A stretch of 64,000 nucleotides of DNA from NCBI GenBank assembly GCA_023898465.1, contig CP060223.1:256001-320000 (forward strand), in the 5' to 3' direction. Source of the DNA: Candidatus Nomurabacteria bacterium. GTDB lineage: Bacteria > Patescibacteriota > Patescibacteriia > HK-STAS-PATE-3. The notes beneath the pieces were generated by a model. The model searched no databases and was not told the origin of the DNA. It was given only the letters and a program-made list of their open reading frames with translations. How positions within the stretch are numbered: position 1 is the first letter of the stretch; each line of letters begins with the position of its first letter. The translations under genes were made by a program, and so were the position numbers. Of the stretch, positions 7,437 to 53,081 are shown piece after piece.

Positions 7437-8786
7437 TTAAAATGGTTCCTGAACTCGGGTTTCGAGGTTTTTGAAACTCACCGTGTTCTCATCGAAGAAC
7501 ATTTGCACGATGCCGGTAGGGCCATTACGGTGCTTGGCAATGTGAATTTCAGCCACATTGCGTCGGTCGGTCTCGGGCTTATAGAGTGCTTCACGATAGA
7601 TAAACATCACCACGTCGGCATCTTGCTCAATAGAACCGGATTCGCGCAGGTCGGCCAGCTTTGGTATCGGAGGAGTGCGGGATTCCACTGCACGAGAAAG
7701 CTGAGAAAGTGCTAAGACCGGCACATCGAGCTCTTTTGCAATACCCTTGAGTCCACGCGTGATTTCCGCAACCTGCTGCACACGGCTCTCTGAATCAACA
7801 CGTCCTTCCATTAACTGGAGGTAGTCGACAACAAGTAAGCCGAGGCCGTGTTCAGTTTTGAGGCGACGGGCCTTGGTGCGCATTTCCATGACCGAGGTCA
7901 CTGCTGAGTCATCGATGAAAATTTGTGCTTCGGATAGCGTACCAATCGCGTGGCCAATGCGAGGGAAGTCATCATCCTGTTCATCAGATGAGAGTTTACC
8001 AGTACGCATTTTCCAAAGGCTAACACCAGCTTCAGCACAGATCATACGATCGACCAATTGCTCCTTGGACATTTCTAAGCTGAAAATGCCAACCGGTTGC
8101 TTGCTCTTAATCGCCACATTACGGGCCAGGTCCATTGCCAGCGAAGTTTTACCAACTGATGGACGGGCAGCTAAAATAATGAGGTCAGAACGTTGTAAGC
8201 CCGCCAGGATATTATCAAGATCAGTGTAGCCAGTTGGTAAACCGCGCAGAGTACCACTTTGCTTATGCAGCTCGTCGATGCGTTCAAAAGCATCTGATAG
8301 GGCGCTTTGCAGACTGATAAACTGCTGGCGCATGTATTTTTGCGAGACCTCGAAGAGTCGCTGTTCAGCTTGGTCCAGCAGAATATCAACCTCGTCGGTT
8401 TCTTTATAGCCCAGCGCATTAATTTCCTGAGAAGCACCAATCAAGCGACGCAGCGTAGCCTTGCGTTGCACAATATTGGAATGATGCACGATATTTGAGG
8501 CAGTTGCTACGGCGTTAGAAAGTTCCGCCAAATAACTACGTCCGCCAATCATCTCGAGCTGTTTTCGCTCATTCAGGCGATTGGTGAGCGAGAGGATGTC
8601 GATAGGCTCCTGCTTGGCATAGAGCTCCAACATAGCCTCAAAAATCATTCGATGCGTGTCCTTATAAAAGTCCTCTGGCCGCAGCTGGTCCGCAATCTTA
8701 ATAATGGCGTCTTTATCTATAAGTAGACTGCCAAGAGTGGCCTGCTCTGCTTCGATATTCTGGGGTGGGATGATTTCCTGTGGCAT
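7437..8786 (-). CDS. dnaB: Replicative DNA helicase DnaB
   Basis: 449 aa with PQNIEAEQATLGSLL at the N-terminus, Walker A (ARPSVGKTS), and VVDYLQLM. No intein is present. Confidence 0.95.
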   Translation of the reverse strand: MPQEIIPPQNIEAEQATLGSLLIDKDAIIKIADQLRPEDFYKDTHRMIFEAMLELYAKQEPIDILSLTNRLNERKQLEMIGGRSYLAELSNAVATASNIVHHSNIVQRKATLRRLIGASQEINALGYKETDEVDILLDQAEQRLFEVSQKYMRQQFISLQSALSDAFERIDELHKQSGTLRGLPTGYTDLDNILAGLQRSDLIILAARPSVGKTSLAMDLARNVAIKSKQPVGIFSLEMSKEQLVDRMICAEAGVSLWKMRTGKLSSDEQDDDFPRIGHAIGTLSEAQIFIDDSAVTSVMEMRTKARRLKTEHGLGLLVVDYLQLMEGRVDSESRVQQVAEITRGLKGIAKELDVPVLALSQLSRAVESRTPPIPKLADLRESGSIEQDADVVMFIYREALYKPETDRRNVAEIHIAKHRNGPTGIVQMFFDENTVSFKNLETRVQEPF

Positions 8787-9523: not shown

Positions 9524-9598
9524 GGGTCCATAGCTCAATGGTAGAGCAACTGCCTTTTAAGCAGTGGGTTGGTGGTTCGAGCCCACCTGGACCCACCA
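9524..9598 (+). tRNA. tRNA-Lys (anticodon UUU), CCA encoded
   Basis: Cloverleaf read by eye. Acceptor GGGTCCA/TGGACCC, anticodon stem ACTGC/GCAGT with loop CTTTTAA, T-arm GGTGG-TTCGAGC-CCACC, discriminator A plus CCA. Confidence 0.9.
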
Positions 9599-9662
9599 GT
9601 CATATCGCGCTTTTTGCATACCCAAGAAGCGAGACCCAGCATAGCGTGGGTCTCGTGTGAGT

Positions 9663-10079
9663 TCAGACGCCTTTGCGGGCGTGGGGATTGTGGCGATAGA
9701 TCGCCATTCCCGGCTTTGCGGTACTGGGAACCTCGATCAGGATATCTCCGCTAGCACCGAAGACGTTTCGCGTCGTTGCCCCGAGGTCAACACGCAGGGT
9801 TGTCAGAGGCGCTGCTCCGAGCGGATCCCCGAGACAAATAATGTCTCGATCATGCAGCGTCACTCCTTGTTTGAGGCTGGCCGTATGCGTTCGTTGGAAC
9901 TGCACACTGCCGAGTACGCCAATCTTGATCCAGTCGGTCTGCGTAGCCGCTTGCGTCGACATAGTACCCCCATTCTTCCAGTGAAAGGCACGCACGGATC
10001 TCATCCTGAGAATGTGCAAATCTTGCCACGGAGTGTAGCGCTGTGGATTTTCTTTGTCAAGCAAAACGGACACACTCAA
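9663..10079 (-). CDS. Hypothetical protein (GC-rich island)
   Basis: The 138-aa ORF starts at a TTG. An internal ATG at 9962 (MSTQAATQTDWIKIG...) has a G-rich Shine-Dalgarno-like sequence and may be the real start. A 9-bp hairpin at 9631-9657 lies downstream. I recognised no family. Confidence 0.4.
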   Translation of the reverse strand: MSVSVLLDKENPQRYTPWQDLHILRMRSVRAFHWKNGGTMSTQAATQTDWIKIGVLGSVQFQRTHTASLKQGVTLHDRDIICLGDPLGAAPLTTLRVDLGATTRNVFGASGDILIEVPSTAKPGMAIYRHNPHARKGV

Positions 10080-10100
10080 GTGAGGTGTCCGTAGTTGGGG

Positions 10101-37126: not shown

Positions 37127-37312
37127 ATGTTACAGCTTAATTCATCAATGCTCGCCAGAGCCTTTCTCTGGTTCGGCCTCGTTTGTGGGTTGTTTGCCGT
37201 ATTAACCCAGCTGTCTGGTAAGACTTTCTTTGCCAGCTCGTTTTTCTATCTACAGGCCGGTATTTTAGGCGTCTTAGCCAGCATTGCCGTCCGAATGGAT
37301 AAGAATAAGTAG
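37127..37312 (+). CDS. Small two-TM membrane protein, hypothetical
   Basis: 61-aa hydrophobic ORF. Confidence 0.35.
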   Translation: MLQLNSSMLARAFLWFGLVCGLFAVLTQLSGKTFFASSFFYLQAGILGVLASIAVRMDKNK

Positions 37313-37381
37313 TTTGAGCAGGGCCATAATGAAGGGCTTGGCGAATTGCGTAGTTTTTGTTACCCTACGCTGGTATTTCGG

Positions 37382-37456
37382 GGCCCTATCGTCTAGTGGC
37401 TAGGACGCATGGTTCTCATCCATGTAACAGGGGTTCGATTCCCCTTAGGGCTACCA
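37382..37456 (+). tRNA. tRNA-Glu (anticodon CUC), CCA encoded
   Basis: Acceptor GGCCCTA/TAGGGCT (G1-U72), D-stem GTCT/GGAC, anticodon stem CATGG/CCATG with loop TTCTCAT, T-arm AGGGG-TTCGATT-CCCCT, and ACCA. Confidence 0.85.
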
Positions 37457-37522
37457 GCCCGCTTAGCGGGCTCTGCTGATAAGGATAGAAGAAAGTAAAA
37501 GTGGAATGTTTAGCATGTTGTT

Positions 37523-37860
37523 TTATAAGTTAAGGAATCGAACGGGCGAGGACGTCTGCCAGCGGCAGGCGACCGCAAGCCCCGGCCTGAAGTCCCGATA
37601 GGGACGGAATGGTCGATTCCCCTTAGGGCTACCACGGGCCATTGCGCCGTGCGGACTGCGTCCGACCAGGTCGGACTCCGCCCTTACGGCGCATGTCCCT
37701 TTCCCCATTGCAAACAGTCCCTCTCGGCAGCCTCGAGGTCCTTGGTTTGCAACGGGGGCCCCGATAAGAGTGCGGGCCCAAGTGCTCGGCATTACAAAGC
37801 GTCCCAGAAAAAATGCCAGACACAAGTCTTCGGCATTTAATGAGAAGAAGACGTAGGTCA
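37523..37860 (+). other. GC-rich, hairpin-dense noncoding segment (candidate structured RNA or remnant of foreign DNA)
   Basis: Only overlapping, low-complexity ORFs on both strands. Successive strong hairpins include GTCCC-GATA-GGGAC and a stem of about 19 bp at 37642-37690. Strand assignment is tentative. Confidence 0.3.
37613..37634 (+). repeat. Exact 22-nt direct repeat of the tRNA-Glu 3' end (att-like)
   Basis: TCGATTCCCCTTAGGGCTACCA occurs at 37435-37456 (inside the tRNA) and again at 37613-37634. The second copy has no upstream tRNA body. Confidence 0.85.
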
Positions 37861-37927
37861 ACTTCAGAGTGAGTCACCACAAACATCGTCGCTGCGCTAG
37901 AGGCAGCATAATTCAGGAGGAAAAAAT

Positions 37928-38467
37928 ATGTCACGTAGCGTACTCATTTTCATCGTACTCCTCGTTATCCTCGCAGTAGGCGGTGGAATTGTTTGGTGGA
38001 TGGTCACCAACCCAAGCGAAAATAGCAACACAAATAATGCCGTTGTCGCGAATACCAACACTGAGGTGAATGCAAATGCTGCACCGAATATTGATGTACA
38101 GGCCGGTGCGGTGGATGTAGGACGAGAAGCCTTGCTGACCAGTGCGAACTTCCGCGCCAGCTCAGCTTCATTGCTCAGCGAATTTGACGGCCTAAGCGCC
38201 GCTGAAGATAAAAGCTACCTGGTTGTCTATTACATGTTGACGCCTTACGAAGGATCAAGCGAAAACGTGCCAAATCTGAACGATCAAAACGTTTCAGTCA
38301 GCAGCGGTGACACTTCCTATACACTGCAAGCAATTGGCACCACCCAGAGCGAAACTGATGGCGAAGAACTTGGCTATCTGCGTTTCGAAGTGCCTGTTGA
38401 CGCAAGCGGATTTGTCCTAACGATTTTAGACGGCGACATAGAGCAGACGATTGATCTGGGCTTTTAA
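37928..38467 (+). CDS. Hypothetical membrane-anchored exported protein
   Basis: 179 aa with an N-terminal TM helix and an asparagine/threonine-rich linker. Shine-Dalgarno AGGAGG. Confidence 0.55.
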   Translation: MSRSVLIFIVLLVILAVGGGIVWWMVTNPSENSNTNNAVVANTNTEVNANAAPNIDVQAGAVDVGREALLTSANFRASSASLLSEFDGLSAAEDKSYLVVYYMLTPYEGSSENVPNLNDQNVSVSSGDTSYTLQAIGTTQSETDGEELGYLRFEVPVDASGFVLTILDGDIEQTIDLGF

Positions 38468-39666: not shown

Positions 39667-42600
39667 ATGGACTCTGCCCCATTAACACTACAAACGAAGA
39701 CACTGCAGAGGTCTTCCGATCTAAATAATTACAGACTCTATCGCGCAGCTCTTGAATGGGAGTTGATTGATCCTATTGTCATAGAAGACCGGGATGACAT
39801 GCATTCCGAAAGTAGTTGGCGTGATCGTCTTGAGCCGTATCATCATCAAGTAACTAACCTAATAACTTTTTGTCGTCGCCTACCTGTTACTTTACTGGCG
39901 GATGATGTCGGGTTAGGAAAAACAATTAGTGCTGGCCTAGTTTTAAGCGAGTTAATTTCGCGCGGGAGAATTTCAAAAATATTAATAGTTTGCCCAAAAA
40001 TACTTCGAGATCAGTGGAAAGAAGAATTGGAAATAAAGTTCCGAATTCCGTCCACAATTGTGACAGGAAGAGAATTAATTACGGCAAAGCCTCCTGAAGA
40101 ACCAGGAGCGGTAATTACCACATACAATACGGCCAGACTGTATTTAGATAGAATTGACCAGAATGGTTTTGAAATATTGATACTTGATGAGGCGCATAAA
40201 TTGCGGAATCTATATGGTGTTGACCCAACACCTCAAGTTGCAATTAAATTCCGTAAAGCTCTGGCTGACCGGATGTTTAAGTACGTATTAATGTTAACTG
40301 CAACGCCGATCCAGAACAGACTATGGGATCTCTACTCGTTGGTTGACTTATTAACCGTTGCACGCGGCCATGAAAATCCCTTTGGAACGCCAGGTATTTT
40401 TGCGAGAAAATTTATTGCAGATAGTCGCACACAAGCGCGTCAGCTTAATCCGGAGATGCGGGATGAGTTTCGCTCAATTATTTACGGTTATATGTCTCGG
40501 GTTCGTCGTGGAGATGCAAAACTCCACTTCCCAGAGCGGGTAGTACAGTTGCATAAAGTTGACCCAACACCAGAAGAATTGCAGTTGATCGGTGTGGTCG
40601 GAAAATCTATACAACAACTGAATGCGCTTACACAAATTGTAATCCTCCAAGCTTTGGTGAGTAGTCCAGAAGCGCTAATAAAGATGTTAGAAGGAATGGC
40701 TAAAAAAGGAACCGTACCGCGTGAGGTGTTGGCGAACGTTAAGGAATCAGCCAAAGAAATTCAAATCACTACAAAACTAAAAGGTTTGGGCGCGTTAGTT
40801 GAAAAACTTAGAAAGGAGCAACCCAATACTTGGCGGGTGGTAGTTTTTACAAGATGGCGAGAAACTCAAACAACTATCGAAACTTTTCTTGAAAAGCAAG
40901 GAGTAAAATGCGGCTTGATAAATGGCGATTCAAGTAAGCGAAATCAGGAAACAATCCAAAGATTTAAAAAAGACTTACCAGACATTAATGTAATTATTTC
41001 TACTGAAGCAGGTTCGGAGGGCGTTAACCTTCAGGCCGCTAATGTTTTGGTTAATTACGATCTCCCCTGGAATCCAATGATAGTGGAACAAAGAATAGGT
41101 CGTATTCAAAGACTTGCTTCTAATTATGCAAATGTTTCTATTTTTAATATTGTTTTGCAAAATACCTTTGAAGAATATATTGTAGGGCGCTTGATGGAAA
41201 AGTTGCAGATGGCTTCTCATGCAATTGGGGATATTGAAGCACTATTGGAAGCATCCGGCATTGATGAAGGTGAAGAAAATGGCTCAAGTGGTTTTGAAGA
41301 AAAAATTCGCCAGTTAGTAGTTGCATCTTTAGCTGGAAAAGATGTTGAGCAGGCAACTCGTAAAGCTGAACAGAGTATTTCAGAAGCTAAAACAGAATTA
41401 GACCATGAAGAAAAGAACATTAATGCTTTACTTGGGGGGATGAGTGATTCTCTAGATTCTGGTCCAAGATGTCCGAAGCTTCCTCAAACTACTAAGTCGA
41501 TGGATGTCCGTGATTTTACTACGGCTGCTCTTATGAGCTTAGGCGCGGAACTACATCCAAAAAAGGATGGTTTATTAGTTTCACAACTTGCTGGGAAAAA
41601 AGAATTAATCCGATTTGATAATAACACTCTGAGCAGTGAAGAGGAGAGTGTCTTATATGCACCGGGAACTTCAACTTTTGAACGCTTAGTCCATAAAGTT
41701 GCAAATGTAGGAAAACACATTGTTGAAGACCTTGATAAAAACCCCCAACAGCAAATTGAGAAAGTAAGTCGTCAATGGGTCGAAAGTTTTGGCGGAGACT
41801 TCGAAAATGTAACGGTAGAGGACGTTTCTCGATGTTTTGCAGGAGTAGCAATAATTCGTGCAAGATCAACAGTAGCTCACGATAGTTATGAGCGTCTCAT
41901 TGAGGTTTCGTGCGCTCCCACTGAGCATTTCAGTTTTGTGACAAGAACGGGATTGGAACCCATCGGAGACTATATTGAAAATCCGACATCTGTTGGTGCG
42001 CTTTCAGAAAAATTAATTGAAAAAGCCAGCCAAGACTCGAGTATTCTTGAGTTCTGTAGATTTTATTTAGAACGAAGATCTCAAGAAATTGCCTCCGCAG
42101 GAAATGACGAAAGAAAAAAGAAAAAGCTTGAGGATGAGTTTACGCCCCGTCTTGAATTTTCCCTAGTCGGTCTTGAGGGCAAGGTTCATCGGATAGTTAA
42201 AAATCAGGTCTCTTATAGAATTGAACGTGAGGGCCAATACAAAAGTACCCTCATGATAACCCCCTCTTCTGGGCAAGTTGATATGCCGGGGATGGGACAA
42301 TGCATGAAAACAGGTAAGACTGTACCGAGCGATTGCTTAGCAAAGTGCGAAATAAGCGGACTTATAGTATTGCGGCATTTTCTTGATCAATCAGAGATCA
42401 GTAATCGACTGGCGCTCCCTGAGCACATCGTTTTATGTACGTTAAGCAACAAGCGAGTGCTAGCGGACGAAGCTATAAAATCAGATGTTACGGGCAAACT
42501 AGTCGCAAAGAAGTTTTTAAAAACATCTTCTCTGAGTGGCAAATTCGCTGAACCACAGTTCATTAACACTTGTGAGTTTACAAAAACAGAAGTTCTGGAA

Positions 42601-43194
42601 AGCGAAATTGCGGTCAGCCAGATTTCAGGAAAAAGATATCGCATTGATGAGCAACTTAAATCCGCAGTTTCAGGAAAACTAGGCCATCGACAAGAATTTG
42701 TAGCAAGTAGTATTTCATCAGCCCCACTTCTTGAAGAAGAAGCCATTCGTTCGGTCACTGGAAAATTTTGTGCACCAATGGAAGCGAGGCCCTGCACTTG
42801 GAGTGGTCGAAAGTGTCACCCCGAAGACCTTAGGACTTGCGAGTTGACCGGAGTCCAAATTCATTCAGAGTACGTAACGCTCGAACCACCAATTCGTTTA
42901 GAAACCCTAAATAATCTTTTGAATGGCACGAGGAGCAAATCTGACAAATTGGAAGTATGGCCTTCACTTTCAAATAGCGTTACAGCTTTATTAAAAGCAA
43001 AACGTTGTAAAATTGAAACAGCAGAAGTTTCACCTAGTGACGATATTTTGGCCGCTTCTATAGAGCTTCGAACTTTTCTAGGCCTGCGCGTGAGTCACAT
43101 TGGCGTACTTTATTCAATAAAGGATGGATCCGTAGTCGGGCGTGTTGCTAGAGGCAAGCGTGGTGATAAGGGCTGGAATCAAACTAAGAACTAA
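39667..43194 (+). CDS. SNF2-family helicase/translocase with a long C-terminal extension containing 15-residue repeats
   Basis: Motif I LADDVGLGKT, motif II LILDEAHKLRN, motif III LMLTATPIQN, helicase-C STEAGSEGVNLQ and QRIGRIQRL. About 650 further aa follow. AT-rich relative to the flanks. Confidence 0.85.
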   Translation: MDSAPLTLQTKTLQRSSDLNNYRLYRAALEWELIDPIVIEDRDDMHSESSWRDRLEPYHHQVTNLITFCRRLPVTLLADDVGLGKTISAGLVLSELISRGRISKILIVCPKILRDQWKEELEIKFRIPSTIVTGRELITAKPPEEPGAVITTYNTARLYLDRIDQNGFEILILDEAHKLRNLYGVDPTPQVAIKFRKALADRMFKYVLMLTATPIQNRLWDLYSLVDLLTVARGHENPFGTPGIFARKFIADSRTQARQLNPEMRDEFRSIIYGYMSRVRRGDAKLHFPERVVQLHKVDPTPEELQLIGVVGKSIQQLNALTQIVILQALVSSPEALIKMLEGMAKKGTVPREVLANVKESAKEIQITTKLKGLGALVEKLRKEQPNTWRVVVFTRWRETQTTIETFLEKQGVKCGLINGDSSKRNQETIQRFKKDLPDINVIISTEAGSEGVNLQAANVLVNYDLPWNPMIVEQRIGRIQRLASNYANVSIFNIVLQNTFEEYIVGRLMEKLQMASHAIGDIEALLEASGIDEGEENGSSGFEEKIRQLVVASLAGKDVEQATRKAEQSISEAKTELDHEEKNINALLGGMSDSLDSGPRCPKLPQTTKSMDVRDFTTAALMSLGAELHPKKDGLLVSQLAGKKELIRFDNNTLSSEEESVLYAPGTSTFERLVHKVANVGKHIVEDLDKNPQQQIEKVSRQWVESFGGDFENVTVEDVSRCFAGVAIIRARSTVAHDSYERLIEVSCAPTEHFSFVTRTGLEPIGDYIENPTSVGALSEKLIEKASQDSSILEFCRFYLERRSQEIASAGNDERKKKKLEDEFTPRLEFSLVGLEGKVHRIVKNQVSYRIEREGQYKSTLMITPSSGQVDMPGMGQCMKTGKTVPSDCLAKCEISGLIVLRHFLDQSEISNRLALPEHIVLCTLSNKRVLADEAIKSDVTGKLVAKKFLKTSSLSGKFAEPQFINTCEFTKTEVLESEIAVSQISGKRYRIDEQLKSAVSGKLGHRQEFVASSISSAPLLEEEAIRSVTGKFCAPMEARPCTWSGRKCHPEDLRTCELTGVQIHSEYVTLEPPIRLETLNNLLNGTRSKSDKLEVWPSLSNSVTALLKAKRCKIETAEVSPSDDILAASIELRTFLGLRVSHIGVLYSIKDGSVVGRVARGKRGDKGWNQTKN

Positions 43195-43195
43195 T

Positions 43196-44686
43196 ATGAA
43201 CCCTCTACTTACAAAAACCGATTATCTTCTTTACCGGGAATGCCCAAAGAATGTTTGGTATAAAATCCAAAAACCTGAATTGTATGCTACATCGGAGCTA
43301 ACAGAGTTTGAAAAATCGATAATGGAAACAGGTAATGAGGTTGAAAAGATTGCAAGGCAACTTTTTCCAAACGGGGTGTTAGTAACTTATCGTGATGCGC
43401 GCGGTCAAGCTGAGACACAAAAGCTATTGGCGGAGAACAAGGATGTGATTTTTCAGCCAGTTTTTGTCAAAAATAACTTTTTGGCTGCTATTGATGTTCT
43501 ACAAAAAGAAAAGAATGGCAAGGGCTACAATGTTTACGAAATAAAATCGACTAGTGATGTAGATAAGAAAACACATTTTCACGACCTAGCATTTCAAGTA
43601 AACGTTCTCAGAATGACAGGCCTGGGAATTAATAAATCATTTGTCATTCATCTAAACTCTGAATATATTCGAAAGGGAGAAATTGAGCTGGATCAGTTAT
43701 TTAAAGTATCAGATGTGACGGATGAAGTAGAAAGTCTTTTACCGGATGTTGCGACTGAGGCGGAAGAAGCATTGAAGTATATTAGCCAAACTTCTGAACC
43801 AGAGGGGTACTGCTGCTGTATTTATAAAGGTCGATCAAGGCATTGTTCAACCTTTCAGCTAGCGAACCCCGAAGTACCCGAATATAGTGTCCACGATATT
43901 TCTAGGATAGGGGTAAGCAAGGCTAAATTAAAAGAGCTAATTGACGGAAGTATTTTTCACCTGGACAAGATTCCGCCACACATTAAATTAAGCGAAATTC
44001 AACAAGGTCAAGTTGAAACCTATAAATTGAATAAGGTATTAGTAGATAAGGAAAGAATTGCGGAAGAATTTAGTGGTCTCACATTCCCACTTTATTTTCT
44101 TGATTATGAAACATTTCCATCAGCAATACCAAGATATGATGGCTTTTCACCATATAAACAAATTCCGTTCCAGTATTCTGTTTACAAACTAGATTCAGTC
44201 GAGAGTGAGCCAACTCATTTTGATTTTTTGTACTCTGGTCCCGAAGACCCCAGCAAGCACTTTGCCGAGTCTTTAAGGGAACATATCGGGGATAAAGGCT
44301 CGATCATCGTTTGGCATAAAGACTTCGAGTGTGGCAGAAATAATGAAATAGGTAGTCGAATTCCTACTTCGAAGGCTTTTTTTGACTCTGTTAATCAGCG
44401 AGTATACGATCTCGAAGACATTTTCAAGAAACAATACCACGTTCATCGAGATTATAAGGGAAGCACATCTATTAAAAACGTATTGCCTGTTTTAGTGCCA
44501 GAATTAACGTATAAAGACCTTGAAATTCGTGATGGTGGCAGTGCAGCGGATAGTTGGGACAAAATAATTAGTGGTGTATATAACGAGACAGAGAAAGAAA
44601 AGGTAATAAAAGATTTAAAGATTTATTGTGGTCTTGATACATTTGCAATGTATGCTATTTGGAATTGCTTGAACAAGCTACTCTAA
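43196..44686 (+). CDS. DUF2779-like dual nuclease (N-terminal Cas4/RecB-like PD-(D/E)XK with Cys cluster + C-terminal DEDD-type exonuclease-like half)
   Basis: The ATG lies 1 nt after the SNF2 stop. YRECPKNVW ... AAIDVL ... VYEIKS ... GYCCCIYKGRSRHC gives a D..ExK motif plus four Cys. The C-terminal half has YFLDYET, WHKDFE, and YCGLDTFAMY. Confidence 0.65.
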   Translation: MNPLLTKTDYLLYRECPKNVWYKIQKPELYATSELTEFEKSIMETGNEVEKIARQLFPNGVLVTYRDARGQAETQKLLAENKDVIFQPVFVKNNFLAAIDVLQKEKNGKGYNVYEIKSTSDVDKKTHFHDLAFQVNVLRMTGLGINKSFVIHLNSEYIRKGEIELDQLFKVSDVTDEVESLLPDVATEAEEALKYISQTSEPEGYCCCIYKGRSRHCSTFQLANPEVPEYSVHDISRIGVSKAKLKELIDGSIFHLDKIPPHIKLSEIQQGQVETYKLNKVLVDKERIAEEFSGLTFPLYFLDYETFPSAIPRYDGFSPYKQIPFQYSVYKLDSVESEPTHFDFLYSGPEDPSKHFAESLREHIGDKGSIIVWHKDFECGRNNEIGSRIPTSKAFFDSVNQRVYDLEDIFKKQYHVHRDYKGSTSIKNVLPVLVPELTYKDLEIRDGGSAADSWDKIISGVYNETEKEKVIKDLKIYCGLDTFAMYAIWNCLNKLL

Positions 44687-52757: not shown

Positions 52758-53081
52758 ATGTCCTGCACTTTTACCTTTCCCGTACCCAAGGGCGTCACGG
52801 AGTTTCGGATCACCACACCCAATTCTGAGAAACTGGCCGGCACCGGACCTCGCTGGGTGGAGGTCAAGGAAGGCTGGACCAGATCCTACAAGCCGATCGA
52901 GGGTGGGCCTGGTACCATCAGAGTGACCAAGGTTGGTCAGGTGCGAGGCGGACACCGTATGGTGACCGTCGAGCTGGTCGACATGACCGCCACCTACGAG
53001 GCGGTGCTGCACTGCAAGCCGGCACCGAGCCAGGCAGTGCAGGAGGCCAGACAGGAGGTCCCGGTCGCCCAAGCATCCTAG
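52758..53081 (+). CDS. Hypothetical protein in a GC-rich micro-island
   Basis: 107 aa. Shine-Dalgarno AGGAGGGAG upstream. A terminator-like hairpin (AACGGCC/GGCCGTT plus T-run) lies at about 53106-53140. Confidence 0.45.
   Translation: MSCTFTFPVPKGVTEFRITTPNSEKLAGTGPRWVEVKEGWTRSYKPIEGGPGTIRVTKVGQVRGGHRMVTVELVDMTATYEAVLHCKPAPSQAVQEARQEVPVAQAS

What the first reader, a model, noticed from the sequence alone, without database searches (positions are those of the whole stretch)
37523..37860. 340-nt GC-rich, hairpin-saturated noncoding block between tRNA-Glu and the next gene
Three mutually overlapping ORFs with arginine/proline/glycine-rich nonsense-like translations cover it, typical of noncoding GC-rich DNA. 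It folds by eye into consecutive strong helices:
- GTCTGCC-AGC-GGCAGGC at about 37554-37570
- GTCCC-GATA-GGGAC (a GNRA loop on the plus strand) at 37592-37605
- a composite stem of about 19 bp, GCGCCGT-GCGGA..GTCCGAC-cag-GTCGGAC..TCCGC..ACGGCGC, at 37642-37690
- TTGCAAAC...GTTTGCAA at 37708-37752
- GGGCCC...GGGCCC at 37757-37779
- a bulged stem at about 37807-37838 with an A-run before and no T-run after on the plus strand, so terminator-like on the minus strand

I could not assign it to RNase P RNA, tmRNA, SRP RNA or 6S RNA.
Basis: seen in the sequence. Interest (0 to 1): 0.5.

Follow-up and report, generated by a model that had tools for sequence, protein, structure and literature searches.

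The report
Structured RNA repeat fused to tRNA ends
The GC-rich block is non-coding and has two parts: a stray duplicate of the 3' end of tRNA-Glu, then one copy of an undescribed structured RNA element that, wherever it occurs in this tiny bacterial genome, starts at the base right after a tRNA's final CCA.

Summary
The block 37523-37860 is the most GC-rich stretch of the window. It folds better than shuffled sequence and has no real protein homologue.

1. An exact 22-nt copy of the tRNA-Glu 3' end (DR2, 37613-37634) lies inside the block, 178 nt after the original (DR1).

2. The part after DR2 (37635-37838, "element E") is a repeat within this genome, a 1.08-Mb 'Candidatus Nomurabacteria' MAG.
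- Two more copies directly follow tRNA-Trp and tRNA-Tyr. All three start at CCA+1 with CGGSCCAT, on the tRNA strand.
- The copies share a scaffold: hairpin H3 with a conserved base and a variable tip, and the conserved hairpin H4. Seven base pairs show compensatory changes.
- G·U to A-U changes favour the tRNA strand.
- In a sister species the tRNA-Trp copy is 96.7% identical, against 83.8% for the tRNA and 89.6% for the spacer.
- Rfam has no match.
- The syntenic relative L145 has only 63 nt after tRNA-Glu.

Best reading: E is a structured RNA made as a tRNA 3' trailer. In the window a 178-bp insertion, probably an integration scar, has separated it from its tRNA. Its function is unknown. No transcription data were available, and copies were found in only two sister genomes.

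The parts
37382..37456 (+). Intact tRNA-Glu(CTC) gene with encoded CCA.
   Evidence: ARAGORN. Rfam tRNA model, 62.5 bits.
37435..37456 (+). DR1: the last 22 nt of tRNA-Glu (T-loop to CCA), TCGATTCCCCTTAGGGCTACCA.
   Evidence: Exact direct repeat with 37613-37634. No such match in 100 shuffles.
37457..37471 (+). Hairpin GCCCGC-TTA-GCGGGC directly after the tRNA. It has no U-tract.
   Evidence: Read from the sequence. Lies in the segment between the two repeats.
37472..37533 (+). AT-rich part of the segment between the repeats. It holds a weak -10-like TATAAG at 37524-37529.
   Evidence: The promoter scan did not call it, so any promoter role is speculative.
37534..37543 (-). Inverted 10-nt copy of the T-loop segment: GGAATCGAAC is the reverse complement of GTTCGATTCC. 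It sits exactly at the AT-rich/GC-rich boundary.
   Evidence: I21. In the predicted fold it pairs with 37613-37620 to close a three-way junction. Its origin is unexplained.
37544..37612 (+). GC-rich hairpins H1 (37553-37571) and H2 (37592-37605, GAUA loop). No counterpart in the other copies of the family.
   Evidence: z = -2.8 for 37534-37634. Local alignment to the other copies scores no better than shuffles.
37613..37634 (+). DR2: orphan duplicate of the tRNA-Glu 3' end. The sequence upstream of it bears no resemblance to a tRNA.
   Evidence: Identity ends sharply at the T-loop.
37635..37699 (+). Element E, hairpin H3. The base is conserved (GGG.CAU with AUG.CCC); the tip is variable.
   Evidence: Homologous starts (CGGSCCAT) in all copies. 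Tip sequences are unrelated but fold alike. Four pairs change on both sides.
37703..37757 (+). Element E, hairpin H4: CCCC.UUGCAAAC with GUUUGCAA.GGGG, enclosing an inner hairpin at 37722-37738. This is the most conserved part.
   Evidence: Window versus L152: 79.5% identity over 127 nt (tRNA-Trp copy) and 85.5% over 83 nt (tRNA-Tyr copy). Within H4 itself the tRNA-Trp copy differs at only a few positions (alignment). Three compensatory pairs, plus G·U to A-U changes in the inner hairpin.
37758..37798 (+). Element E, 3' region. It holds a tentative hairpin H5, either GGGCCC/GGGCCC or GAGUGC/GUGCUC, and the first 3' motif CAAGTGCTCGGCATT (37779-37793).
   Evidence: The motif alone does not fold stably. 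CCAAG could pair with CUUGG in the H4 loop; this is inference.
37811..37838 (+). Terminal bulged hairpin that includes the second 3' motif CAAGTCTTCGGCATT (37823-37837). It is followed by UUUAAU and is the likely end of the plus-strand transcript.
   Evidence: z = -2.8. Motif matches. The terminator scan did not call it.
37928..38467 (+). Downstream gene: a 179-aa hypothetical protein with an N-terminal membrane segment (H6760_01415).
   Evidence: Its positional counterpart in the relative L145 starts 63 nt after tRNA-Glu.

Best explanation
**Overview.** The block is a composite of two things.

**1. Element E (37635-37838).**
- E is one copy of a lineage-restricted family of structured RNA elements, about 165-230 nt long.
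- Each copy is fused to the 3' end of a tRNA gene. In this genome they follow tRNA-Glu, tRNA-Trp and tRNA-Tyr.
- Every copy begins at the base after CCA, with CGGSCCAU, and lies on the tRNA strand.
- The shared architecture is:
  - hairpin H3, with a conserved base and a freely varying tip;
  - a CU-rich linker;
  - the strongly conserved hairpin H4, with two 6-nt internal loops and an inner hairpin;
  - a 3' motif, CAAGYNYUCGGCRUU.

**Inferred mechanism.**
- E is transcribed from the tRNA promoter as the 3' trailer.
- The cut that matures the tRNA 3' end gives E its 5' end.
- E then persists as a stable structured RNA.
- The invariant H4 loops are the probable contact surface for a protein or another RNA.

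**2. The 178 bp in front of E (37457-37634).**
- This is a later insertion bounded by 22-nt direct repeats of the tRNA-Glu 3' end.
- That arrangement is the signature of site-specific recombination in the T-loop of a tRNA gene: a regenerated tRNA plus a displaced 3' fragment.
- The inserted DNA has shrunk to, or never exceeded, 156 nt.
- As a result, this copy of E is attached to an orphan tRNA fragment rather than to a whole tRNA.

**Shown versus inferred.**
- Shown: the repeat family, the CCA junction, the structure and its covariation, conservation in a sister species, and absence from a syntenic relative.
- Inferred: transcription, processing, any action in trans, and the integrase origin of the 178-bp insertion.
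For: **A multi-copy family in one genome**
- A spurious-ORF hit led to loci L151 and L152.
- The proteins on L152 are H6760_03140 to H6760_03175, on the same 1,082,586-nt contig that carries the window's H6760_01415.
- A covariance model built from two copies finds the third at 85 bits, E = 3.5e-24.
- The model finds nothing in 635 kb of other, mostly candidate-phyla-radiation (CPR), loci.

**The junction with tRNAs**
- Copies follow tRNA-Trp-CCA|CGGGCCAT, tRNA-Tyr-CCA|CGGCCCAT and DR2-CCA|CGGGCCAT.
- That is three of the five tRNA 3' flanks seen.

**Structure**
- Independent minimum-energy folds of two copies give the same architecture, with z about -3.
- Across three copies, 97.8% of cells are paired and 7 of 31 pairs change on both sides.
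- None of 500 shuffles reaches the observed values. Slid controls give 35-54% paired.
- In the H4 inner hairpin, G·U changes to A-U and C-G changes to U·G. This fits only the tRNA strand.

**Constraint**
- In a sister species (93.6% nucleotide identity over 2,177 nt of coding-dominated sequence), E after tRNA-Trp is 96.7% identical.
- The tRNA-Trp gene itself is 83.8% identical and the downstream spacer 89.6%.

**Not protein-coding**
- A 1-nt indel between copies shifts every reading frame.
- There are no Pfam or database homologues.

**The insertion**
- The 22-nt repeat is exact.
- The syntenic relative L145 has tRNA-Glu, then 63 nt, then the gene.
- The regenerated-tRNA-plus-displaced-fragment pattern is the one described for genomic islands in tRNA genes (PMC4383910).
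Against: - No transcription data were available. Strand, ends and co-transcription with the tRNA are inferred.
- Covariation rests on three paralogues and one orthologue. The three-copy alignment was fitted to the model, which inflates pairing counts.
- The whole block folds slightly better on the minus strand (z = -4.6 against -3.1), because most stems are perfect palindromes.
- The 3' motif is a stable hairpin in only one unit, so the transcript's end is uncertain.
- The window copy is detached from its tRNA and may be inactive.
- No integrase or other element gene lies between or near the repeats.
- GC-rich DNA lies on both sides of DR2. The simplest integration model does not predict that.
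- The inverted T-loop copy at 37534-37543 is unexplained.
- The family was seen in only two sister genomes. It could therefore be a selfish repeat rather than a functional RNA.
Confidence: 0.55

Rival explanations
1. E is a selfish, non-autonomous mobile element (like a MITE, a miniature non-autonomous transposable element). It homes to the 3' end of tRNA genes. Its hairpins are recognition structures for a transposase or recombinase encoded elsewhere in the genome, read on single-stranded DNA or on RNA.
For: - E is multi-copy within about 81 kb of a 1.08-Mb genome.
- The junction at CCA+1 is identical behind three unrelated tRNAs.
- It is absent after tRNA-Glu in the syntenic relative L145.
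- It was not found in other CPR loci.
- The tRNA-Tyr copy looks like two partial units in tandem.
- E has about 62% GC in a 46% GC genome.
- Between sister species E is far more similar than the tRNA it follows, which could reflect recent spread or gene conversion.
Against: - No terminal inverted repeats or target-site duplications were seen.
- No transposase or integrase lies next to any copy.
- The copy after tRNA-Trp sits at the same site in both sister species.
- The H3 tips are completely different between copies while H4 is nearly fixed. That pattern fits long-term selection better than recent copying.
- No copy was found in IMG/VR viral contigs or in the phage and plasmid collections.
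Confidence: 0.2
2. E acts in cis. It could be a structured leader (5' stabiliser or riboswitch-like sensor) for the gene downstream. It could also be an insulator or terminator that limits read-through from the strongly transcribed tRNA gene.
For: - In all three loci a same-strand gene starts soon after E.
  - In the window the gap is about 90 nt after the terminal hairpin.
  - After tRNA-Trp the gap is under 110 nt.
  - After tRNA-Tyr the gap is about 30 nt.
- The window copy ends in a hairpin followed by UUUAAU.
- No separate promoter was called for the downstream genes.
Against: - The three downstream genes are unrelated hypothetical proteins with no shared Pfam family. A common ligand or regulator is therefore not suggested.
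- Neither a stabiliser nor a terminator would need near-invariant internal-loop sequences or an exact CCA+1 start.
- The 3' motif is not a convincing terminator in most copies.
Confidence: 0.15
3. The whole block is inert debris of one or more integrated elements (leftover attachment-site arm DNA at a tRNA integration hot spot) and has no RNA-level function.
For: - The 22-nt repeat of the tRNA 3' end and the inverted T-loop copy are both present.
- The region is GC-rich against an AT-richer genome.
- The relative L146 also shows tRNA-Glu fragments around its gene.
- The relative L145 lacks the block.
Against: - Compensatory changes keep H3 and H4 paired in three copies.
- E is more conserved than its flanks between sister species.
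- The same sequence follows three different tRNAs, with no element genes near any of them.
Confidence: 0.07
4. The block is a divergent copy of a known housekeeping RNA (RNase P RNA, tmRNA, SRP RNA or 6S RNA), or it is a protein-coding gene.
For: Size and GC-richness are in the right range for RNase P RNA or tmRNA. Three ORFs of 63-112 aa cover the block.
Against: - Rfam gives no match at E <= 10 in the window, nor at E <= 1 (L151) and E <= 5 (L155) in the two other loci scanned.
- ARAGORN finds no tmRNA.
- There are at least three copies per genome.
- The ORFs have no Pfam match and no real homologues. A frame-shifting indel separates the copies.
Confidence: 0.02

Closest known systems
Small RNAs derived from tRNA 3' external transcribed spacers, such as 3'ETS-leuZ of E. 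coli (from my own knowledge: Lalaouna et al. 2015; the term also occurs in PMC6191717, found but not read)
   Same: The RNA is encoded directly downstream of a tRNA on the same strand. It is presumably made from the tRNA transcript and released by tRNA 3'-end processing.
   Different: 3'ETS-leuZ is about 50 nt, single-copy and acts as an Hfq-dependent sponge. E is 165-230 nt, heavily structured, present behind at least three different tRNAs, and starts exactly at CCA+1. Processing and base-pairing targets were not tested here.
[quoted passage not shown]
   Same: The same non-coding RNA is fused downstream of several different tRNA genes scattered in the genome. It borrows the tRNA's promoter and processing machinery.
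   Different: Those are eukaryotic Pol III units, and the passenger RNA has a known function. Here the host is a CPR bacterium and the passenger is an unknown RNA.
Attachment-site repeats of genomic islands integrated in tRNA genes (Islander database, PMC4383910)
   Same: A regenerated intact tRNA gene plus a displaced 3' fragment form exact direct repeats. The identity runs from the T-loop to CCA.
   Different: Only 156 nt lie between the repeats. There is no integrase or cargo. Element E lies outside the repeat-bounded segment.
Small hairpin-forming intergenic repeats of bacteria: REP/BIME, Correia/NEMIS, RUP and ERIC (from my own knowledge)
   Same: They are multi-copy, GC-rich relative to their surroundings, form hairpins, lie between genes and are co-transcribed with neighbours.
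   Different: E has no terminal inverted repeats or target duplications. It has a strict orientation and a strict junction with tRNA CCA ends, and it combines a variable hairpin tip with a near-invariant second hairpin.

Membership tests
Rfam families, including RNase P RNA, tmRNA, SRP RNA, 6S RNA and self-cleaving ribozymes | A match to the family covariance model. | tested here: not met
   cmscan at gathering score on the whole window and at E <= 10 on 37300-38000 finds only the tRNA plus chance-level hits. The same holds for L151 and L155. ARAGORN finds no tmRNA.
tRNA-gene integration scar (attachment-site repeats) | An exact direct repeat of the tRNA 3' portion, with an intact regenerated tRNA at one end. 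| tested here: met
   The 22-nt repeat matches 22 of 22 bases at 37435-37456 and 37613-37634, with none in 100 shuffles. The tRNA scores 62.5 bits.
tRNA-gene integration scar (attachment-site repeats) | An integrase or other element genes between the repeats. | tested here: not met
   Only 156 nt lie between the repeats. The neighbouring genes checked by Pfam are glycolytic or housekeeping genes or hypotheticals, and none is an integrase.
tRNA-gene integration scar (attachment-site repeats) | An unoccupied site in relatives. | tested here: inconclusive
   The syntenic relative L145 has tRNA-Glu followed by 63 nt and then the gene. It is too distant (73% GAPDH amino-acid identity) to align the spacer. 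It lacks both the 178-bp insertion and E.
tRNA 3'-trailer-derived RNA | Lies immediately downstream of a tRNA gene on the same strand. | tested here: met
   All three copies start at CCA+1 on the tRNA strand.
tRNA 3'-trailer-derived RNA | Co-transcribed with the tRNA and released by tRNA-processing nucleases. | not testable with these tools
   No expression data were available. The window copy is separated from its tRNA by 178 nt.
Conserved structured RNA | Base pairs maintained by compensatory substitutions. | tested here: met
   7 of 31 pairs change on both sides and 97.8% of cells are paired. None of 500 shuffles reaches this, and slid controls give 35-54%. The sample is only three paralogues, so the support is limited.
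MITE- or REP-like mobile repeat | Multiple dispersed copies. | tested here: met
   Three loci (four units) were found in about 81 kb of one genome.
MITE- or REP-like mobile repeat | Terminal inverted repeats and target-site duplications. | tested here: not met
   None was seen at the boundaries of the copies. No repeat of the tRNA-Trp or tRNA-Tyr 3' end lies downstream of those copies.
Intrinsic terminator | A GC-rich stem followed by a U-tract. | tested here: inconclusive
   The 37811-37838 hairpin (z = -2.8) is followed by UUUAAU on the plus strand and by U6 on the minus strand. The scan tool did not call it.
Protein-coding gene | A homologue or a conserved reading frame. | tested here: not met
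   There is no Pfam match and no homologue for the 112-aa ORF. The only hit for the 101-aa ORF is a spurious ORF over a paralogous copy. A 1-nt indel between copies breaks the frame.

The most novel reading that the evidence does not exclude
E is functionally tied to the tRNA 3' end itself. One possibility is a self-processing RNA that cuts at CCA|C and so produces the mature tRNA 3' end, in an organism with a reduced set of RNases. The other is an element that specifically homes to the 3' end of tRNA genes by a mechanism not yet described in bacteria. The identical CCA+1 junction behind three unrelated tRNAs is compatible with both. So is the finding that E is more conserved than the tRNA it follows.
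Probability: 0.12. Interest if true: 0.85.

Novelty: new variant of a known kind. Interest (0 to 1): 0.55.

Why it matters
- CPR (Patescibacteria) bacteria have very small genomes and few known regulatory RNAs.
- This genome spends several hundred bases on at least three copies of a structured RNA. The element is welded to tRNA 3' ends and evolves more slowly than the tRNA beside it. That makes it a candidate new RNA class.
- RNA genes fused to tRNA genes are otherwise known from eukaryotes (tRNA-5S rRNA in Yarrowia, tRNA-snoRNA in plants). This would be a natural bacterial example.
- It also offers a concrete, testable case of how tRNA trailers are used in minimal cells.
- The locus also records a site-specific recombination event at a tRNA gene in a lineage where mobile elements are poorly known.

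Tried and rejected
**Database searches that found nothing relevant**
- Rfam at gathering score and at E <= 10 found only tRNAs.
- blastn of 37457-37927 against the phage and plasmid collections gave no real match.
- IMG/VR viral-contig scans:
  - The 22-mer hit only a tRNA-Glu gene on a 332-kb contig.
  - The 17-nt palindrome gave 25 seed-only chance hits.
  - Three other block-specific patterns gave no hits.
  - A degenerate H4 pattern gave 5 hits, none matching the covariance model.
- The metagenome scan for the 22-mer returned 34 loci. All are ordinary tRNA-Glu genes, and no flank resembles the block.
- The genome-collection scan with GAPDH found a nearest species representative at only 64% identity, with no similarity to the block.

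**Protein routes**
- The 179-aa neighbour has no homologues.
- The 112-aa ORF has none.
- Pfam is negative for all three ORFs.

**Ideas considered and dropped**
- A tmRNA or permuted tmRNA: there is no partner for the acceptor strand.
- A decayed second tRNA-Glu gene as the source of DR2: this is possible, but the identity ends abruptly at the T-loop and the upstream sequence has no residual similarity to a tRNA.
- A primer-binding site for tRNA-Glu on the minus strand: no retroelement is nearby.
- An HDV-like ribozyme fold: the helix order does not fit.
- An SRP domain IV motif or an RNase P CR-I motif: only superficial similarities.
- An integron attC-like site: the core sequences do not fit.
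- Homology between the segment between the repeats and the E copies: local alignment scores equal those of shuffles.
- The 3' motif as a hairpin terminator: it is stable in only one unit.

**Blocked step**
The 1.08-Mb NCBI contig itself was never served.
Full report

Yes.
- tRNA-Glu(CTC) lies at 37382-37456. The next gene starts at 37928.
- The 471 nt between them hold the most GC-rich stretch of the window. GC is 0.61-0.69, against a mean of 0.465.
- The 338 nt fold better than dinucleotide shuffles on both strands: z = -3.1 on plus and -4.6 on minus.
- Three overlapping ORFs cover the block. None has a Pfam match, and the 112-aa ORF has no homologue.
- Rfam gives nothing except the tRNA.
- An independent assembly (L081) is 100% identical over the whole block.
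- The source is a MAG labelled 'Candidatus Nomurabacteria bacterium', with a 1,082,586-nt contig and locus tags H6760_.

**2.

- The last 22 nt of tRNA-Glu, TCGATTCCCCTTAGGGCTACCA, recur exactly at 37613-37634, which is 178 nt downstream. No such match appears in 100 shuffles.
- Upstream of the second copy nothing resembles a tRNA, so the identity ends abruptly in the T-loop.
- A 10-nt inverted copy of the T-loop segment (GGAATCGAAC, 37534-37543) sits exactly where AT-rich sequence turns GC-rich (I21).

**3. Relatives**

- The nearest species representative has only 64% GAPDH identity. The nearest proteins in metagenomes reach 73-74%.
- One of these, L145, is fully syntenic. Its order is ScpA, ScpB, TIM, GAPDH, a 59-aa gene, tRNA-Glu(CTC), a 175-aa gene and a GT4 gene.
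- L145 has only 63 nt between the tRNA and the next gene, against 471 nt in the window.
- The extra roughly 400 nt is therefore specific to the window's lineage.
- A metagenome scan for the 22-mer found 34 ordinary tRNA-Glu genes and nothing like the block.

**4. The key lead**

- A full HMMER search with the spurious 101-aa minus-strand ORF returned one short but strong hit, P0124 (73% identity over 30 aa).
- P0124 is another spurious ORF. Its contig, L151, reads: tRNA-Thr, rpmG, tRNA-Trp, and then a sequence homologous to window 37635-37800, directly after the CCA.
- L151 is 99.9% identical to L152, a longer contig found through the cluster member P0125.
- Exact look-up of five L152 proteins shows they are H6760_03140 to H6760_03175 of the same 1.08-Mb contig as the window.
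- The "homologue" is therefore a paralogue. The element, which I call E, is a repeat within one genome.
- BLAST and a covariance model built from two copies found a third copy 900 nt away on L152 (85 bits, E = 3.5e-24). It again sits directly after a tRNA 3' end.
- L155 extends that contig end and shows a class II tRNA with anticodon GTA, that is tRNA-Tyr.
- The model found no copy in 635 kb of other, mostly CPR, loci. This includes L145 and the tRNA-Lys flank in the window.

**5. Anatomy of E** (window coordinates)

- E starts at CCA+1 with CGGSCCAU.
- **H3 (37636-37699).**
  - The base is conserved: GGG.CAU pairs with AUG.CCC.
  - The tip differs completely between copies.
  - The region between the conserved strands is about 51 nt in the window and about 58 nt after tRNA-Trp.
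  - After tRNA-Tyr it is about 130 nt, where it even contains an extra 3' motif.
- **Linker.** A CU-rich UUU(U) stretch.
- **H4 (37703-37757).**
  - CCCC.UUGCAAAC pairs with GUUUGCAA.GGGG.
  - The stem encloses two 6-nt internal loops (AGUCCC and UCCUUG) and an inner hairpin (37722-37738).
- **3' region.**
  - A tentative hairpin H5.
  - The motif CAAGYNYTCGGCRTT, present twice in the window (37779-37793 and 37823-37837), twice after tRNA-Tyr and once after tRNA-Trp.
  - E therefore runs from 37635 to about 37838.

**6. Is the structure selected?**

- Independent folds of two copies give the same architecture.
- On the three-copy alignment, 97.8% of cells pair and 7 of 31 pairs change on both sides.
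- No shuffle out of 500 reaches these values. Sliding the 3' partners drops pairing to 35-54%.
- In the unambiguously aligned H4, T-A becomes C-G in the tRNA-Trp copy, and G-C becomes U-A and C-G becomes G-C in the tRNA-Tyr copy.
- In the inner hairpin, G·U becomes A-U, U·G becomes U-A and C-G becomes U·G. All of these stay paired on the tRNA strand. On the other strand they would be A·C mismatches.
- A 1-nt indel between copies destroys any shared reading frame.
- Caveat: there are only three paralogues, and the alignment was fitted to the model.

**7. Is it constrained over time?**

- A sister species (L144) is 93.6% identical over 2,177 nt of adjoining sequence, almost all coding.
- Its locus L156 carries the orthologous tRNA-Trp plus E.
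- E is 96.7% identical (174 of 180). The tRNA-Trp gene is 83.8% (62 of 74) and the downstream spacer 89.6% (43 of 48).
- One of the six differences in E turns a G-C pair into G·U.

**8. Interpretation**

- E always abuts a tRNA CCA end. The window copy abuts an orphan tRNA-Glu 3' fragment.
- The simplest history is an ancestral tRNA-Glu-E fusion, later split by a 178-bp insertion bounded by 22-nt repeats.
- That pattern, a regenerated tRNA plus a displaced fragment, is the hallmark of integrase-mediated insertion in tRNA genes (PMC4383910).
- Here only 156 nt remain between the repeats and no integrase is nearby.
- A truncated second tRNA-Glu gene is a weaker alternative.
- For E itself I favour a structured RNA made as the tRNA's 3' trailer and released by tRNA 3' maturation.
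- Known analogues are the E. coli 3'ETS-leuZ RNA (my own knowledge) and the dicistronic tRNA-5S rRNA and tRNA-snoRNA genes of eukaryotes (PMC2566860).
- Transcription, processing and function are inferred, not shown.

**9. Rivals**

- **A selfish element that homes to tRNA ends.** Copy number, the identical junction, lineage restriction, a tandem partial copy and the GC excess all fit. Against it, there are no terminal repeats, no target duplications and no enzyme, and the site is fixed in both sister species.
- **A cis-acting leader or insulator.** A same-strand gene follows every copy, but those genes are unrelated hypotheticals.
- **Inert debris of integrated elements.** Covariation and conservation contradict this.
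- **A known housekeeping RNA or a protein.** Tested and not met.

**10. What remains unexplained**

- The GC-rich hairpins H1 and H2 and the inverted T-loop copy upstream of DR2 (37534-37612) have no counterpart elsewhere.
- The 3' end of the RNA is uncertain.
- It is unknown why tRNA-Trp diverges so much more than E between the sister species.

**11. Verdict**

The block is nevertheless composite and includes a tRNA-gene recombination scar.
- E is an undescribed family that abuts tRNA ends and has no Rfam match. I rate it a new variant of a known kind, tRNA-linked non-coding RNAs, with moderate to high interest.

Noticed in passing
window 9657-10094: A GC-rich stretch (about 0.61) lies right after tRNA-Lys(TTT) at 9524-9598. 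It is covered by overlapping ORFs on both strands (145 aa on plus, 138 aa on minus) with no Pfam match. It is not a copy of element E according to the covariance model.
   Followed up: partly
window 52758-53081: A 107-aa ORF with a good ribosome-binding site and about 65% GC sits in a 46% GC genome, between dnaJ and the next gene. It has no Pfam match and looks like a foreign gene.
   Followed up: partly
L146 7303-7341 and about 7541-7554: In a relative with 73% GAPDH identity, tRNA-Glu is preceded by a partial duplicate of its own 5' half. It is followed by a GGGGCTACCA remnant that resembles the 3' end of other tRNA-Glu genes. The tRNA-Glu locus seems prone to rearrangement in this group.
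   Followed up: no
L156 29-102 compared with L152 10267-10340: The tRNA-Trp genes of the two sister species differ at 12 of 74 positions (83.8% identity). The adjoining element E is 96.7% identical, and a 2,177-nt mostly coding stretch is 93.6% identical. This is unusual divergence for a tRNA and may reflect replacement of the tRNA gene.
   Followed up: partly
window 39667-44686: An SNF2-family helicase (1175 aa) and a DUF2779 protein (514 aa) follow the GT4 gene in the window. In the syntenic relative L145 an AF_1845-domain gene occupies that position. This may be an inserted defence-like gene pair.
   Followed up: no
L084 4611-4684 (same contig as L126): A 332-kb IMG/VR contig carries a tRNA-Glu(CTC) gene whose last 22 nt are identical to the window's tRNA-Glu. 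Its flanks are unrelated to the block.
   Followed up: partly
L155 53-175 (equals L152 11228-11106, minus strand): The tRNA-Tyr copy of the element looks like two partial units in tandem. The first has the 5' start, a hairpin and a 3' motif but no H4. The second starts inside the H3 3' strand, with 24 nt identical to the window copy, and carries H4 and a 3' motif.
   Followed up: partly
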